Positions 6,001 through 9,000 of a stretch of DNA of 32,332 nucleotides are shown here, in pieces. The DNA lies in the NCBI RefSeq assembly GCF_003334335.1, contig NZ_QOWQ01000046.1. One strand, written 5' to 3'. The position numbers are program-made. Source of the DNA: Escherichia coli (lineage in GTDB: Bacteria; Pseudomonadota; Gammaproteobacteria; Enterobacterales; Enterobacteriaceae). The stretch's first letter is position 1; the number at the start of each line of letters is the position of its first letter.

Positions 6001-9000
6001 CTAATATTATGGTGGAGGACACCGCGCATACGATTAATAAAAAAGTGGGCTGGTTGCTGCACGGGCAGGAGTCAATTCTGGTGCCAGATTTCAACACCAA
6101 ATGTCAGTGCCAGATTTTAGGTGAAGGAATTGGTTTTTTGCCGGATTACATGGTCCGTGAGGCGATGACGCAATCCCTGCTGGTTACCCGACAAATCCAT
6201 AATCCGCGCCAGGATTCGCGCATGTTACTGGCGACTCAGCATTCTGCTACGGGTCAGGTGACGCAGTGGATTAAAAAACAATTTGCGCCAAATGGCATAT
6301 TAACGGGGATCTATCAGGATTTACTGCATCGGGAGAATTAATCGCTGCCAACCTCCCGATGCGCTGTGAATAGCGGTTTACATCAACCACCTGCTTTCAT
6401 TACCCATTCAGAGATAAATTTATTACCCGGTACTGGCGGAGAGTACAAATAGCCCTGCAAAAAGTGAACGCCTTTACCGATCATTAAATCCGCCTGCTCC
6501 TGGGTTTCTACCCCTTCCGCCACGATACTCAGACCAGGCTTACGCGCTAGTTCGACAATATTGTCCACAATATGACCGGAGATTTCGTCGACACTCGCCA
6601 TTTGCACAAATGACTTATCGATCTTAATAAAATCGACCGGGAACGCCTGCAAGTAACGATAGGTCGCATAACCCGTACCAAAGTCATCCAGCGCAAAGGT
6701 AATGTTGTGCTGATGAAGGCTGTCAAATATCGCTCTGGCTTCTGGCGTTACCGGAATAGGGTTACGTTCCGTTAGCTCGAGAACCAGCTTGATTTTATCG
6801 TTACCTAATTTATTAACCAGGTTCAGACACTCTTTTTCAAATCCCGCTGCCAAAAAACAACCCGCCGAGACGTTGATGCCAATATGGAAATTGTCCGGCA
6901 GCAAATGTTTTACCGGCATCAGAATATCCGCAGTCTGTTTCATCAGTTGGCGGGTCATTATGACAATAAGACCGGATGACTCCGCCAGAGGAATAAACTG
7001 ATCCGGTGGGATAATTCCCGTTTGTGGATGTTCCCAGCGGACAAGCACCTCACAGCCCGTCAGTACCCCAGTCTGCGCGCAGAAAACCGGTTGGATCCAC
7101 GGTTTGAATTCGTGGTTTTCCAACGCCAGACTGATGGCTTCAGGCGTGACGATATGGTGATAGTGATTATCATTAATATATCTGTGACTATTACTCCCCG
7201 TGGCGGATATGATCTCCGGATTGTACTGAAAGAAAATATCGCGCCAGAAAGTAATATCGCTCTGAATCCCCAGTTTCTCAAAGAGCTGTTTCTTTTGATG
7301 TGAAATTGTCTTTGCACTGCGATTTCTGTACTGTGATATTTCTGTTACAGACATTCCCTGCATCAGCAGCTTGAGTAGCAGTCGTTCTTTCTCGGATACG
7401 CTACCAGGCAATGACAAATGAACCGTTGTACCGAACTCTTGCAGAAAAACACGAAAATCACATGAATTCATGAACACACCTTTATCTTTTATCGCTGTTC
7501 AGTATGAGTGATTACCTGTCGATTCCTGAGCACACATAAGGGGTAACCATAAACATCAGCGATGCCATACGTATAACATCCCACATCACTATCAAGAAGA
7601 TTATCTTTACCTCTGATGCTCGCTCAAAAACAGTTACGCTAAATACCTTAAAAAGATAATCACAAGTCAAACTCAGGAGATAATCACGCAAGAATGCAAT
7701 ATTAAAATTCAGATACTCATTTTTGGTAATAAAGAAGTAGTTGGACTATTTCAATATTTATAATTTCCCACTACATACTGGCATCCATTCATGAGCAAAG
7801 GCGCATTATATGAATTTAACAATCCAGATCAACTGAAAATACCTCTCCCTCATAAACACATAGCGTCAACATTCAATGACATAATGAGTAAAGATGTTGG
7901 TTATGCATACGTATCATTACTCTATGCCTGTCCCTTAAAAACCCACTCATTAAGACTGAATCCATTCAGCAAATGATAACCAATATTATAGCAATGCCAA
8001 TAAAAACAATATTTAAAACATTCAATAAAATATCACACACAGATAATTAAACCTTAAATAACAAATGGTTGCGTTAATTTTAGTTGATTTACGATACACA
8101 TTTCTCATGAATAATGCGTCATTTCAAATGATCAGCAATATTTACATTAAATAAGACTAAACTTATTGAACATTCGCAACAGCCCAAATGTAGGTTTTGG
8201 GCTGCAATAGTTCTTTTCTTTTTTATTATCTGTTGTCTGGTAATCATCAATAGATACTAAGGGCTTAACCGTATAGATATAACGTATCAAGAGGTAGGAG
8301 AAACAGCGCCATATGCAGACATGGCGCGGTTTTATGCAATAACAATCACGCGTCCGGGAACATCACGCTATGGCCCGGCGCTTCACGATGGAGATGAATA
8401 AAGTTAAGGTGCCGCTCGTACTGGTCAAGAATATCGGTGATCACCTGCTCTTTGCTGTAGTCCATCAGGTCGTTGCCCTGGCTGCCTTCTAACAGGAAGG
8501 TTTCCAGCCGGTAGTAGGTCGATTTACCGCTGCGTGCGCGGTAGGTAAAGCCCGGCACCGAATATTGCTGCGGCCAAATCTGATAGACAAAGTTTTGCTC
8601 TTCGCCCATATGCACCAACAAATCCAGATGACCCAACTGCTGTCCCTCTTCCGGTGGCAGGCTTTTTAGCTCCACGTACGCGCCGCGCAACCGCAACTCC
8701 TGCGCCACTTCTTCCATTGCCGGGTAACAGACCGTCTCCATCATCTGTTTAGTGTAACGCGTGCCCGGATAATTCATCAGGCGCGAGAGACGTTTTTTCC
8801 AGCTCAGGCGATCCTGAAGCCCCAGCGGTCGCGGTGCGGTATCGCGGTTGGCACTTTCACGGCGGTAATCTTCTACCTTCAGAGATTTATACAACCCCGC
8901 CATCACGAAGAAGATCACAAAGCTGAACGGCAGCCCCATAATCACCGTGGTGTTTTGCAGCGCGGATATCCCGTTAGTCATCAGCATGCCGAGCGTCAGC

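What the first reader, a model, noticed from the sequence alone, without database searches (positions are those of the whole stretch)
6383..7471. PdeL: one-polypeptide fusion of a LuxR-type DNA-binding domain and an EAL c-di-GMP phosphodiesterase
The domain fusion is visible in the translation (HTH at the N-terminus, ELTE / DDFGTGYAT EAL motifs at the C-terminus). It couples c-di-GMP turnover to transcriptional output. EcpR at the other end of the window carries the same HTH class as its C-terminal domain, so both are candidates for the same promoter logic.
Basis: partly seen in the sequence, partly recalled or inferred. Interest (0 to 1): 0.3.

Follow-up and report, generated by a model that had tools for sequence, protein, structure and literature searches.

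The report
PdeL, a known c-di-GMP switch protein
The gene is E. coli pdeL (yahA), an already well-studied protein that joins a DNA-binding domain to an enzyme degrading the bacterial signal c-di-GMP, so the finding is correct but ordinary.

Summary
Confirmed and already known. Window 6383-7471 (minus strand) encodes a 362-aa protein identical over residues 2-362 to the crystallised E. coli PdeL (PDB 7PK5). It has a LuxR/GerE helix-turn-helix (residues 25-72) and an EAL domain (112-346) with every catalytic residue in place. Published work shows that PdeL degrades c-di-GMP and activates its own promoter when c-di-GMP is low. The window has the K-12-type regulatory region, which differs at 2 of 874 bases, neither in a mapped site. 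I located the published Cra box, the proximal PdeL half-site (CDB) and the distal PdeL palindrome (CIB) from the authors' oligonucleotides.

Both proteins carry GerE domains, but these are 26% identical. PdeL's domain is RcsB-like and EcpR's is NarL/VraR-like. One 10-mer, AGTCTTAATG (the CDB half-site), recurs next to the TTCCT boxes upstream of ecpR, inside a near-consensus RcsAB box. That box is conserved in Klebsiella, Enterobacter and Pantoea. The best 120 of 6,749 hits gave no PdeL-type protein for Klebsiella or Enterobacter, so RcsB/EcpR explains it without PdeL. PdeL-Rcs cross-talk at such boxes remains a testable lead.

In passing: many E. coli genomes replace the pdeL regulatory region with ehaA.

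The parts
6383..7471 (-). pdeL (yahA) coding sequence, 362 aa plus stop
   Evidence: ORF. Identical over residues 2-362 to PDB 7PK5 PdeL. RefSeq annotates pdeL here, and this stretch is matched in 5182 of 5426 E. coli genomes.
7256..7399 (-). LuxR/GerE helix-turn-helix, residues 25-72. Recognition helix is R51-S-A-K54-T-I-S-H58-Q-K60-K61.
   Evidence: Pfam GerE E 2.8e-7. 25 of 51 residues identical to RcsB 151-201, and RcsB is the only other solved relative of this domain. K54, T55 and K60 are invariant in 10 homologues. K60A abolishes DNA binding (10.1101/2021.10.01.462762).
6434..7138 (-). EAL c-di-GMP phosphodiesterase domain, residues 112-346
   Evidence: Pfam EAL E 3.7e-61. E141, R145, N200, E232, E235, D262, D263, K283, E319 and Q339 are all present. 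The domain has solved structures 4KIE, 4LJ3 and 4LYK.
7479..7482 (-). Shine-Dalgarno-like AAGG, 7 nt before the ATG
   Evidence: Read from the sequence. GGTGTGTTC-ATG is conserved in E. fergusonii, E. albertii and ehaA-type E. coli.
7805..7832 (-). Probable pdeL promoter, TTGATC-16 nt-TATAAT. The leader would be about 325 nt.
   Evidence: 10 of 12 consensus match. The scan alone is not significant. The element is invariant in diverged E. coli alleles and recognisable in E. fergusonii. It lies inside the fragment the authors used for the RNA polymerase recruitment assay, whose end primer maps to 7793-7812. The transcription start itself is inferred.
7955..7970 (-). Cra box GCTGAATGGATTCAGT
   Evidence: Lies inside the published CB/CDB oligonucleotide, which maps to 7942-7971. 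A 20-nt exact match is conserved in E. fergusonii at the same distance from the ATG and is invariant in E. coli alleles.
7948..7957 (-). Cra-dependent PdeL box (CDB) half-site AGTCTTAATG; the conserved core is AGTCTTAA
   Evidence: Lies in the published CB/CDB oligonucleotide outside the Cra consensus and is homologous to the right arm of CIB, AGTCTTAT. AGTCTTAA is invariant in four E. coli alleles and AGTCTT is kept in E. fergusonii. The exact extent of the CDB is my inference, because the figure is not held.
8147..8170 (-). Cra-independent PdeL box (CIB) TTCAATAAGTTTAGTCTTATTTAA; dyad AATAAG-N6-CTTATT, with core TAAG-N6-CTTA at 8152-8165
   Evidence: Derived from the published CIB primers, which map to 8114-8180, and the legend 'CIB plus 10 bp up and 33 bp down'. 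The arms are invariant in diverged alleles and only a spacer base varies. E. fergusonii has a perfect TAAG-N6-CTTA dyad 168 bp upstream of its Cra box.
7966..8040 (-). yahV, a 24-aa small-protein gene inside the pdeL regulatory region. Its stop codon overlaps the Cra box.
   Evidence: RefSeq annotation; translation VCDILLNVLNIVFIGIAIILVIIC.
31022..31564 (+). ecpR (matA), a regulator with a C-terminal GerE HTH
   Evidence: NCBIfam EcpR equivalog 342.5 bits against a cut-off of 300. Pfam GerE E 6.5e-11. RefSeq annotation.
30630..30667 (+). ecp upstream regulator site. It holds CATTAAGACT (the reverse complement of the CDB 10-mer, 30630-30639), the RcsAB-like box TAAGACTATTCCTA (30633-30646) and TTCCT-N17-TTCCT (30641-30667).
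   Evidence: An RcsAB-like box sits at about the same distance from the ecpR ATG in Enterobacter mori, two Klebsiella species and Pantoea.

Best explanation
This is the E. coli gene pdeL (formerly yahA), intact and wired as in K-12. Its product is a dual-function 'trigger' phosphodiesterase. The C-terminal EAL domain binds and hydrolyses c-di-GMP. The N-terminal RcsB-type helix-turn-helix binds two sites upstream of its own promoter: a distal palindrome (CIB, AATAAG-N6-CTTATT) and a proximal half-site (CDB) next to a Cra box, where binding needs Cra. At low c-di-GMP, PdeL dimers assemble into tetramers. According to the published model, these engage both sites, counteract H-NS silencing, recruit RNA polymerase and raise pdeL transcription. 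At high c-di-GMP the EAL dimer closes, the tetramer falls apart and autoactivation stops. Positive autoregulation combined with destruction of its own inhibitor gives a bistable switch between high and low c-di-GMP. Shown here: gene identity, domains, catalytic residues and the location and conservation of the DNA sites. Taken from the literature: enzyme activity, DNA binding, the tetramer model and bistability.
For: Residues 2-362 are identical to PDB 7PK5 'Cyclic di-GMP phosphodiesterase PdeL', and the EAL-domain structures 4KIE, 4LJ3 and 4LYK also match. Pfam finds GerE plus EAL. All residues used in the literature are present at their published numbers: K60, S114, E141, L168, K283, D295 and S298, together with the metal-binding and catalytic set N200, E232, E235, D262, D263, E319 and Q339. 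RefSeq names the gene 'DNA-binding transcriptional activator/c-di-GMP phosphodiesterase PdeL', with the synteny betT-yahV-pdeL-yahB. The 874-bp upstream region differs from K-12 MG1655 at 2 positions, 8081 and 7656, neither in a mapped site. The published EMSA oligonucleotides map exactly in the window. The sites are conserved while their flanks vary. The mechanism is described in 10.1101/2021.10.01.462762 and in the trigger-PDE review PMC5052742.
Against: Nothing in the sequence argues against this. Caveats: the mechanism was established in K-12 and not in this strain. The transcription start is inferred. The HTH domains were not resolved in the 4.4 A crystal, so how PdeL reads DNA is not seen directly. 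Another group reports that a pdeL deletion has no significant phenotype under laboratory conditions (10.1101/2022.01.19.477023).
Confidence: 0.95

Rival explanations
1. PdeL and EcpR share promoter logic through common LuxR-type half-sites. Either PdeL also binds the ecp regulatory region, or EcpR/RcsB also binds the pdeL promoter. That would link c-di-GMP level to production of the common pilus.
For: The exact 10-mer AGTCTTAATG occurs only twice in the 32-kb window: at the CDB half-site (7948-7957) and next to the first TTCCT box upstream of ecpR (30630-30639). An exact match of 10 nt or more between published PdeL-site DNA and shuffled ecpR upstream sequence arises in 8.5% of shuffles. That is roughly 0.5% if the match must also lie within 10 bp of the TTCCT pair. 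The CIB core TAAG-N6-CTTA has the geometry and the six conserved positions of the RcsAB box TaAGaatatTCcta (PMC4325325). The PdeL recognition helix matches RcsB at 9 of 11 positions, including K54, the equivalent of the base-contacting K180 (PMC5829831). MatA/EcpR acts as a heterodimer with RcsB (PMC5651002). Both loci are H-NS-silenced and positively autoregulated.
Against: There is no excess of long shared words between the two upstream regions: the longest is 11 nt, as expected by chance, and 7- to 9-mers show only about a 2-sd excess in these AT-rich regions. The two HTH domains are 26% identical, and EcpR's closest solved relatives are NarL/VraR-type rather than RcsB. The ecp box is conserved at the same position in Enterobacter, Klebsiella and Pantoea; one search shows the preceding CATT only for Enterobacter mori (CATTGAGAAT) and K. 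pneumoniae (CATTAAGAAT). Among the best 120 of 6,749 hits, GerE+EAL proteins were named only for Escherichia and Atlantibacter. In the two genera where the flank is seen, 8 to 9 of the 10 shared bases are therefore explained by RcsB/EcpR alone. In diverged E. coli alleles the CDB reads AGTCTTAAAA, so only 8 nt are shared. No TTCCT-N(10-25)-TTCCT pair lies in the pdeL upstream region. The targets of PdeL listed in the literature read here are pdeL, fliFGHIK and sslE, not ecp. No held paper links PdeL with MatA/EcpR.
Confidence: 0.15
2. The EAL domain is a degenerate, non-catalytic c-di-GMP sensor, and the protein is only a c-di-GMP-responsive transcription factor.
For: Degenerate EAL proteins are common effectors (PMC5052742). 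An E. albertii paralogue with the same architecture, P0082, does have degenerate motifs: EITKGNR, ADFDLSY and AKGVE.
Against: The window protein keeps every catalytic and metal-binding residue. It is identical to a protein described as one of the first EAL proteins shown to be an active c-di-GMP phosphodiesterase (PMC5052742). The K283R and E141A mutant phenotypes depend on catalysis and substrate binding.
Confidence: 0.01
3. The HTH is a vestigial appendage, and PdeL is just one more phosphodiesterase that contributes to the c-di-GMP pool.
For: The GerE match is modest (E 2.8e-7). A pdeL deletion is reported to have no significant phenotype under laboratory conditions. Many E. coli genomes lack the autoregulatory sites.
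Against: HTH residues K54, T55 and K60 and the following W76 and R77 are invariant in homologues down to 35-49% identity. K60A abolishes autoregulation, and purified PdeL shifts the CIB and CDB DNA. The CIB-type dyad and the Cra box are conserved in E. fergusonii although the flanks have diverged.
Confidence: 0.02

Closest known systems
E. coli K-12 PdeL (YahA, b0315; PDB 7PK5, 4LJ3, 4LYK, 4KIE)
   Same: The protein sequence is identical over residues 2-362. The neighbours are the same (betT, yahV, yahB). The regulatory region is the same apart from 2 of 874 bases outside the mapped sites.
   Different: Some synonymous DNA differences in the coding sequence. The strain is not K-12: fdeC is intact, and an IS421 end follows ecpA.
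PdeR (YciR), the other E. coli 'trigger' phosphodiesterase
   Same: An active EAL enzyme whose binding and turnover of c-di-GMP controls a second, regulatory activity (PMC5052742).
   Different: PdeR acts on protein partners (DgcM, MlrA) and has no DNA-binding domain. PdeL binds DNA directly through its own HTH.
RcsB DNA-binding domain and the RcsAB box
   Same: The PdeL HTH is 25/51 identical to RcsB 151-201, and the recognition helix matches at 9 of 11 positions. The CIB core TAAG-N6-CTTA fits the conserved positions and spacing of TaAGaatatTCcta. The similarity of the YahA HTH to RcsB has been noted before (PMC6298664).
   Different: PdeL has no receiver domain, and its control comes from the EAL domain's oligomeric state. 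The second base-contacting residue differs (RcsB S184, PdeL H58). No RcsB-PdeL interplay is described in the papers read here.
CSS-motif membrane EAL phosphodiesterases (E. coli PdeC/PdeG type; Pfam PF12792 + PF00563)
   Same: These are the closest relatives of the PdeL EAL domain outside the PdeL group, at 47-59% identity over the EAL domain.
   Different: They have a periplasmic CSS sensor domain and membrane anchoring in place of a cytoplasmic HTH.
EcpR (MatA)
   Same: It has a GerE-class HTH and an H-NS-silenced, positively autoregulated locus.
   Different: The HTH is C-terminal and follows an EcpR_N domain. There is no enzymatic domain. It is 26% identical to the PdeL HTH. It works with RcsB.

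Membership tests
EAL-domain c-di-GMP phosphodiesterase, catalytically competent | Significant match to the Pfam EAL profile (PF00563) over its full length | tested here: met
   E 3.7e-61; model positions 3-236 of 236; residues 112-346.
EAL-domain c-di-GMP phosphodiesterase, catalytically competent | Signature Glu of the E(A/V)L motif and the following Arg (substrate and metal binding) | tested here: met
   E141-V-L and R145 are present. E141 and R145 are invariant in 10 homologues.
EAL-domain c-di-GMP phosphodiesterase, catalytically competent | Metal-binding residues Asn, ExxE and DD, catalytic-base Lys, and the distal Glu and Gln | tested here: met
   N200, E232, E235, D262, D263, K283, E319 and Q339 are present. 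K283 is named as the catalytic base in 10.1101/2021.10.01.462762. The correspondence to RocR numbering rests on my memory.
EAL-domain c-di-GMP phosphodiesterase, catalytically competent | Measured hydrolysis of c-di-GMP | not testable with these tools
   Published for the identical K-12 protein, as cited in PMC5052742.
LuxR/FixJ/NarL (GerE) helix-turn-helix regulators | Match to Pfam GerE (PF00196) covering the HTH | tested here: met
   E 2.8e-7; residues 25-72; model positions 3-50 of 57.
LuxR/FixJ/NarL (GerE) helix-turn-helix regulators | Recognition-helix lysine that contacts bases (RcsB K180 equivalent) and backbone-contacting Lys residues | tested here: met
   K54, K60 and K61 align to RcsB K180, K186 and K187. 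K54 and K60 are invariant in homologues.
PdeL orthologue with K-12-type autoregulatory wiring | Protein identity and conserved gene neighbourhood | tested here: met
   Identical to 7PK5 over residues 2-362. The order is betT-yahV-pdeL-yahB.
PdeL orthologue with K-12-type autoregulatory wiring | Presence of the Cra box, CDB and CIB upstream of the promoter | tested here: met
   The published oligonucleotides map exactly at 7942-7971 and 8114-8180. There are only 2 differences from K-12 in 874 bp, both outside these sites.
Trigger phosphodiesterase (concept of Hengge 2016) | Regulatory output on a macromolecular target that is controlled by the enzyme's own binding and degradation of c-di-GMP | not testable with these tools
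   Published for K-12 PdeL. The sequence prerequisites are met here.
   342.5 bits against a cut-off of 300. GerE E 6.5e-11. ecpA lies downstream.

The most novel reading that the evidence does not exclude
PdeL boxes are RcsB-type boxes (TAAG-N6-CTTA compared with TaAGaatatTCcta), read by an RcsB-like recognition helix. The RcsB/EcpR box upstream of ecpR carries the PdeL CDB half-site exactly. PdeL could therefore occupy some RcsB or RcsB-partner sites, with ecp as the candidate here. Conversely, RcsB or EcpR could occupy the pdeL CIB and CDB. Either would directly link the c-di-GMP bistable switch to Rcs envelope signalling and to production of the common pilus.
Probability: 0.15. Interest if true: 0.4.

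Novelty: already known. Interest (0 to 1): 0.12.

Why it matters
PdeL is a model for how a bacterium turns graded second-messenger levels into an on/off decision that affects biofilm formation, motility and phage sensitivity. Finding it here adds nothing new to that picture. Two side results may be useful. First, the PdeL operator looks like an RcsB-type box, and one such box in front of ecpR shares the CDB half-site. This gives a cheap, specific EMSA and reporter experiment for PdeL-Rcs-EcpR cross-talk. Second, the K-12 autoregulatory wiring is missing from a large minority of E. coli genomes, where ehaA ends 141 bp upstream of pdeL. The published 'digital' behaviour may therefore not hold across the species.

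Tried and rejected
1. The primary papers (PMC4719445 Reinders 2016, PMC3945359 Sundriyal 2014, PMC3430341 Martinez-Santos 2012) are not held. The EcpR 'TTCCT boxes' therefore rest on my memory of the 2012 abstract plus the TTCCT-N17-TTCCT match found. The binding-site figures of the 2021 preprint are not held either. I reconstructed CIB and CDB from the supplementary oligonucleotide table and a legend.

2. NCBIfam has no PdeL-specific model above its cut-off. The best match is a generic c-di-GMP phosphodiesterase model at 218.8 bits against a cut-off of 461.

3. A generic shared-word comparison of the two upstream regions showed no significant long matches.

4. A second TAAG-N6-CTTA match at 32259-32272, just after ecpA, looked like a second PdeL-type box in the ecp operon. 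It turned out to be the terminal repeat of an IS421 (IS4-family) element inserted in the ecpA terminator hairpin. I rejected it.

5. The promoter and terminator consensus scan found no more sites than in shuffled sequence. I picked the promoter on conservation and on the published RNA polymerase fragment.

6. BLAST of the window's upstream region against E. albertii and ehaA-type E. coli loci found nothing, and against E. fergusonii only the Cra box. Wider phylogenetic footprinting was therefore not possible.

7. The K-12 fliE-fliF intergenic region, a published PdeL target, contains TCAATAAGAC, which resembles a CIB half-site. A single half-site in 274 bp is weak evidence, and I could not compare it with the mapped site.

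8. An Rfam scan of the window found nothing above gathering thresholds.

9. I did not run structure prediction because solved structures exist.
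Full report
**Observation**

The window is a stretch of an E. coli chromosome that is not K-12. The gene order is yahG to yahB, pdeL, yahV, betTIBA, ykgEFGH, rclRABC, fdeC, ykgMO, ykgL, ecpR, ecpA.

On the minus strand an ORF runs from ATG 7471 to the stop at 6383-6385. The ORF lister also offers a GTG at 7477. The ATG is the annotated start and has an AAGG Shine-Dalgarno-like sequence 7 nt upstream.

The 362-aa product carries Pfam GerE (LuxR family) at residues 25-72 (E 2.8e-7) and EAL at residues 112-346 (E 3.7e-61). It is identical over residues 2-362 to the crystallised 'Cyclic di-GMP phosphodiesterase PdeL' (PDB 7PK5), and its EAL domain matches 4KIE, 4LJ3 and 4LYK.

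The region 6200-7800 is found in 5182 of 5426 complete E. coli genomes. RefSeq annotates it there as 'DNA-binding transcriptional activator/c-di-GMP phosphodiesterase PdeL'.

They are all present at the numbers used in the literature:
- E141, R145, N200, E232, E235, D262, D263, K283, E319 and Q339;
- the oligomerisation residues S114, L168, D295 and S298;
- the DNA-binding residue K60.

In an alignment with nine homologues down to 35% identity, E141, R145, N200, D263, K283 and Q339 are invariant. E232, E235, D262 and E319 fail only in one E. albertii paralogue whose motifs are visibly degenerate.

**How it works**

This part comes from the literature, applied to an identical protein and a near-identical promoter.

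[quoted passage not shown] It is classed as a 'trigger' phosphodiesterase, meaning that its binding and turnover of c-di-GMP controls a second activity, here transcription (PMC5052742).

PdeL binds two sites upstream of its own promoter:
- a distal Cra-independent palindrome, CIB (Kd about 573 nM);
- a proximal Cra-dependent box, CDB (Kd about 76 nM with Cra), which overlaps the Cra site.

Cra and PdeL co-activate the promoter. H-NS silences it and competes with PdeL at CIB. K60A (DNA binding) and S298F (dimerisation) abolish activation, while E141A and K283R make it blind to c-di-GMP (10.1101/2021.10.01.462762).

Without c-di-GMP, PdeL dimers form tetramers of open (R-state) EAL dimers. c-di-GMP closes the dimer (T-state) and dissolves the tetramer. 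The L168R tetramer mutant and a scrambled CIB both lose cooperative activation. The outcome is a bistable switch with memory.

**The DNA sites in the window**

The figures with the site sequences are not held. The supplementary oligonucleotide table is held.
- The CIB primers map to 8157-8180 and 8114-8136. With the legend 'CIB plus 10 bp up and 33 bp down', this places CIB at 8147-8170 (minus strand): TTCAATAAGTTTAGTCTTATTTAA. It is an AATAAG-N6-CTTATT inverted repeat.
- The CB/CDB oligonucleotide maps to 7942-7971: TGCTGAATGGATTCAGTCTTAATGAGTGGG. It contains a Cra box (GCTGAATGGATTCAGT) running into AGTCTTAATG, which is homologous to the right arm of CIB (AGTCTTAT). I take that as the CDB half-site.
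- The far primer of the RNA polymerase recruitment fragment maps to 7793-7812, just past a TTGATC-16-TATAAT element at 7805-7832. I take that as the promoter, which implies a leader of about 325 nt. The transcription start is an inference.

The 874-bp intergenic region differs from K-12 MG1655 at only two bases, 8081 and 7656, neither in these sites.

Conservation supports the sites.
- In four E. coli alleles that differ by up to 7%, the CIB arms, the Cra box plus AGTCTTAA, and the promoter hexamers are invariant, while nearby sequence varies.
- In E. fergusonii the surrounding sequence has diverged beyond BLAST recognition. A 20-nt block with the Cra box survives at the same distance from the ATG, a perfect TAAG-N6-CTTA dyad lies 168 bp upstream of it, and the promoter hexamers are recognisable.

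**Type of DNA-binding domain**

The only solved relatives of the PdeL N-terminal region, other than PdeL itself, are RcsB entries. The alignment gives 25 of 51 identical residues, and the recognition helix RSAKTISHQKK compares with RSIKTISSQKK in RcsB.

In RcsB, K180 and S184 make the base-specific contacts with half-sites TTAGGAA and TCTAAGA (PMC5829831). PdeL has K54 and H58 at those positions.

The CIB core TAAGTTTAGTCTTA has the spacing and all six capitalised positions of the RcsAB-box consensus TaAGaatatTCcta (PMC4325325). The PdeL operator is therefore an RcsB-type box. The similarity of the YahA HTH to RcsB has been noted before (PMC6298664). I found no held paper that says the same of the operator.

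**Distribution of the fusion**

Among the best 120 of 6,749 hits, GerE+EAL proteins come from Escherichia coli, E. albertii, E. fergusonii, Atlantibacter hermannii (48% identity) and a few unnamed metagenome sequences. The next-closest EAL domains (47-59% identity) belong to CSS-motif membrane phosphodiesterases of enterobacteria and pseudomonads. On this listing the fusion looks taxonomically narrow.

EcpR (31022-31564) does have a C-terminal GerE domain. However, it is only 26% identical to the PdeL HTH over 43 aa, and its closest solved relatives are EsrB and VraR, not RcsB.

Shared words between the 874-bp pdeL and 817-bp ecpR upstream regions show no significant long matches. The longest is 11 nt, as expected by chance, and there is a roughly 2-sd excess of 7- to 9-mers in these AT-rich regions.

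One of the seven shared 10-mers is notable. AGTCTTAATG occurs exactly twice in the whole window. One copy is the CDB half-site. The other (30630-30639, opposite strand) abuts a TTCCT-N17-TTCCT pair at 30641-30667. From my memory of Martinez-Santos et al. 2012, which is not readable here, that pair matches the two EcpR boxes.

The element TAAGACTATTCCTA at 30633-30646 matches the RcsAB consensus at 13 of 14 positions and is the only such match in the window.

A 10-nt exact match between published PdeL-site DNA and shuffled ecpR upstream sequence arises in 8.5% of shuffles. That is about 0.5% if it must also fall next to the TTCCT pair. The result is suggestive, not decisive.

Comparison with other genera explains most of it without PdeL. 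An RcsAB-like box sits at about the same distance from the ecpR ATG in each:
- Enterobacter mori: TGAGAATAATCCTA;
- Klebsiella huaxiensis: TAAGAATAGTCTTA;
- K. pneumoniae: TAAGAATATTCCTA;
- Pantoea: TAAGAATATTCTTA.

In Enterobacter mori and K. pneumoniae the preceding CATT is also shown (CATTGAGAAT, CATTAAGAAT). The listed hits include no GerE+EAL protein named for Klebsiella or Enterobacter, although their EAL proteins of other architectures are listed; Pantoea does not appear in that list. MatA/EcpR is known to act as a heterodimer with RcsB (PMC5651002).

The shared half-site therefore reflects a common RcsB-family recognition code rather than demonstrated co-regulation. In diverged E. coli alleles the CDB reads AGTCTTAAAA, which reduces the identity to 8 nt. 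Cross-talk of PdeL at ecp, or of RcsB/EcpR at pdeL, is not excluded and is cheap to test. I put it at about 15%.

A second TAAG-N6-CTTA match just after ecpA is the end of an IS421 element and has nothing to do with regulation.

**Verdict**

The finding is a correct identification of a well-characterised gene. It is already known, and its interest is low.

**Side observations**

- Only 3651 of the 5184 genomes that match the upstream region carry at least 80% of it. The sampled exceptions match only the first 40 nt after betT.
- In one such strain the autotransporter gene ehaA fills the gap and ends 141 bp before pdeL. In that type of locus, and in E. albertii, no Cra box, CDB or TAAG-N6-CTTA dyad was found within 1 kb upstream. 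The published autoregulatory wiring therefore cannot be universal in E. coli.
- A group of pig and pork isolates carries IS1 in the pdeL leader at 7767-7775.

Noticed in passing
window 7472-8345, compared with L012 (strain HB6), L005 and L003: The K-12-type betT-pdeL intergenic region (yahV, CIB, Cra box, CDB, promoter) is carried at 80% coverage or more by 3651 of the 5184 genomes that match it. The sampled remainder match only the first 40 nt after betT. In strain HB6 the autotransporter adhesin gene ehaA fills the gap and ends 141 bp upstream of pdeL. In such loci and in E. albertii I found no Cra box, CDB or TAAG-N6-CTTA dyad within 1 kb upstream. The published PdeL bistable circuit is therefore probably strain-specific.
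   Followed up: partly
window 7767-7775 (insertion point seen in L013, strain NT1F10, and hits H4-H10): Several pig, pork and cow isolates carry an IS1 with a 9-bp target duplication in the pdeL leader. It lies about 30 nt downstream of the predicted -10 element, between the autoregulatory promoter and the gene. The effect on pdeL expression is unknown.
   Followed up: partly
window 32257-32332: The window ends inside an IS421 (IS4-family) element. Its terminal repeat CATAAGCGCTAACTTAAGGGTTG is inserted in the GGGG...CCCC terminator hairpin just after ecpA. Other genera have an intact hairpin followed directly by ecpB. In this strain ecpA is therefore separated from ecpB-E.
   Followed up: partly
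window 7966-8040 (minus strand): The 24-aa small-protein gene yahV lies between the two PdeL boxes, and its TGA stop is part of the Cra box. In the 93%-identity alleles the record annotates no yahV.
   Followed up: no
window 19543-19574: A second TTCCT pair (TTCCT-N22-TTCCT) lies in the 5' part of the rclR coding sequence. It begins with the same 10-mer, TTCCTAACAC, as the pair upstream of ecpR. The pattern TTCCT-N(10-25)-TTCCT occurs 4 times in the window against 0.87 expected. This may be chance.
   Followed up: no
window 7600-7690 (minus strand): The pdeL leader holds two copies of GTGATTATCT 27 bp apart and an 11-nt perfect palindrome AAGATAATCTT. The second repeat copy is polymorphic: T7656 is C in K-12 and in other alleles. 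This proximal leader is not shared with E. fergusonii.
   Followed up: no
protein P0082 (E. albertii), not in the window: A paralogue with the same GerE+EAL architecture (35% identity) has degenerate catalytic motifs: EITKGNR for ELTERNP, ADFDLSY for DDFGTGY and AKGVE for AEGVE. It is probably a non-catalytic relative of PdeL.
   Followed up: no
L017 (K-12 fliE-fliF intergenic), not in the window: The region upstream of fliF, a published PdeL target, contains TAAGTCAATAAGACAA, in which TCAATAAG is identical to the left arm of CIB. It may be the PdeL site there. I could not compare it with the mapped site.
   Followed up: partly
window 23697-27953 (minus strand): fdeC (eaeH) is an intact 1418-aa inverse autotransporter gene here. 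From memory, this locus is disrupted in K-12. This fits with the window coming from a non-K-12 strain.
   Followed up: no
protein P0027, not in the window: A single database protein combines LysR domains with a PdeL-like EAL domain (96% identity over half the query). yahB and pdeL are convergent neighbours, so this is probably an assembly or gene-calling artefact.
   Followed up: no
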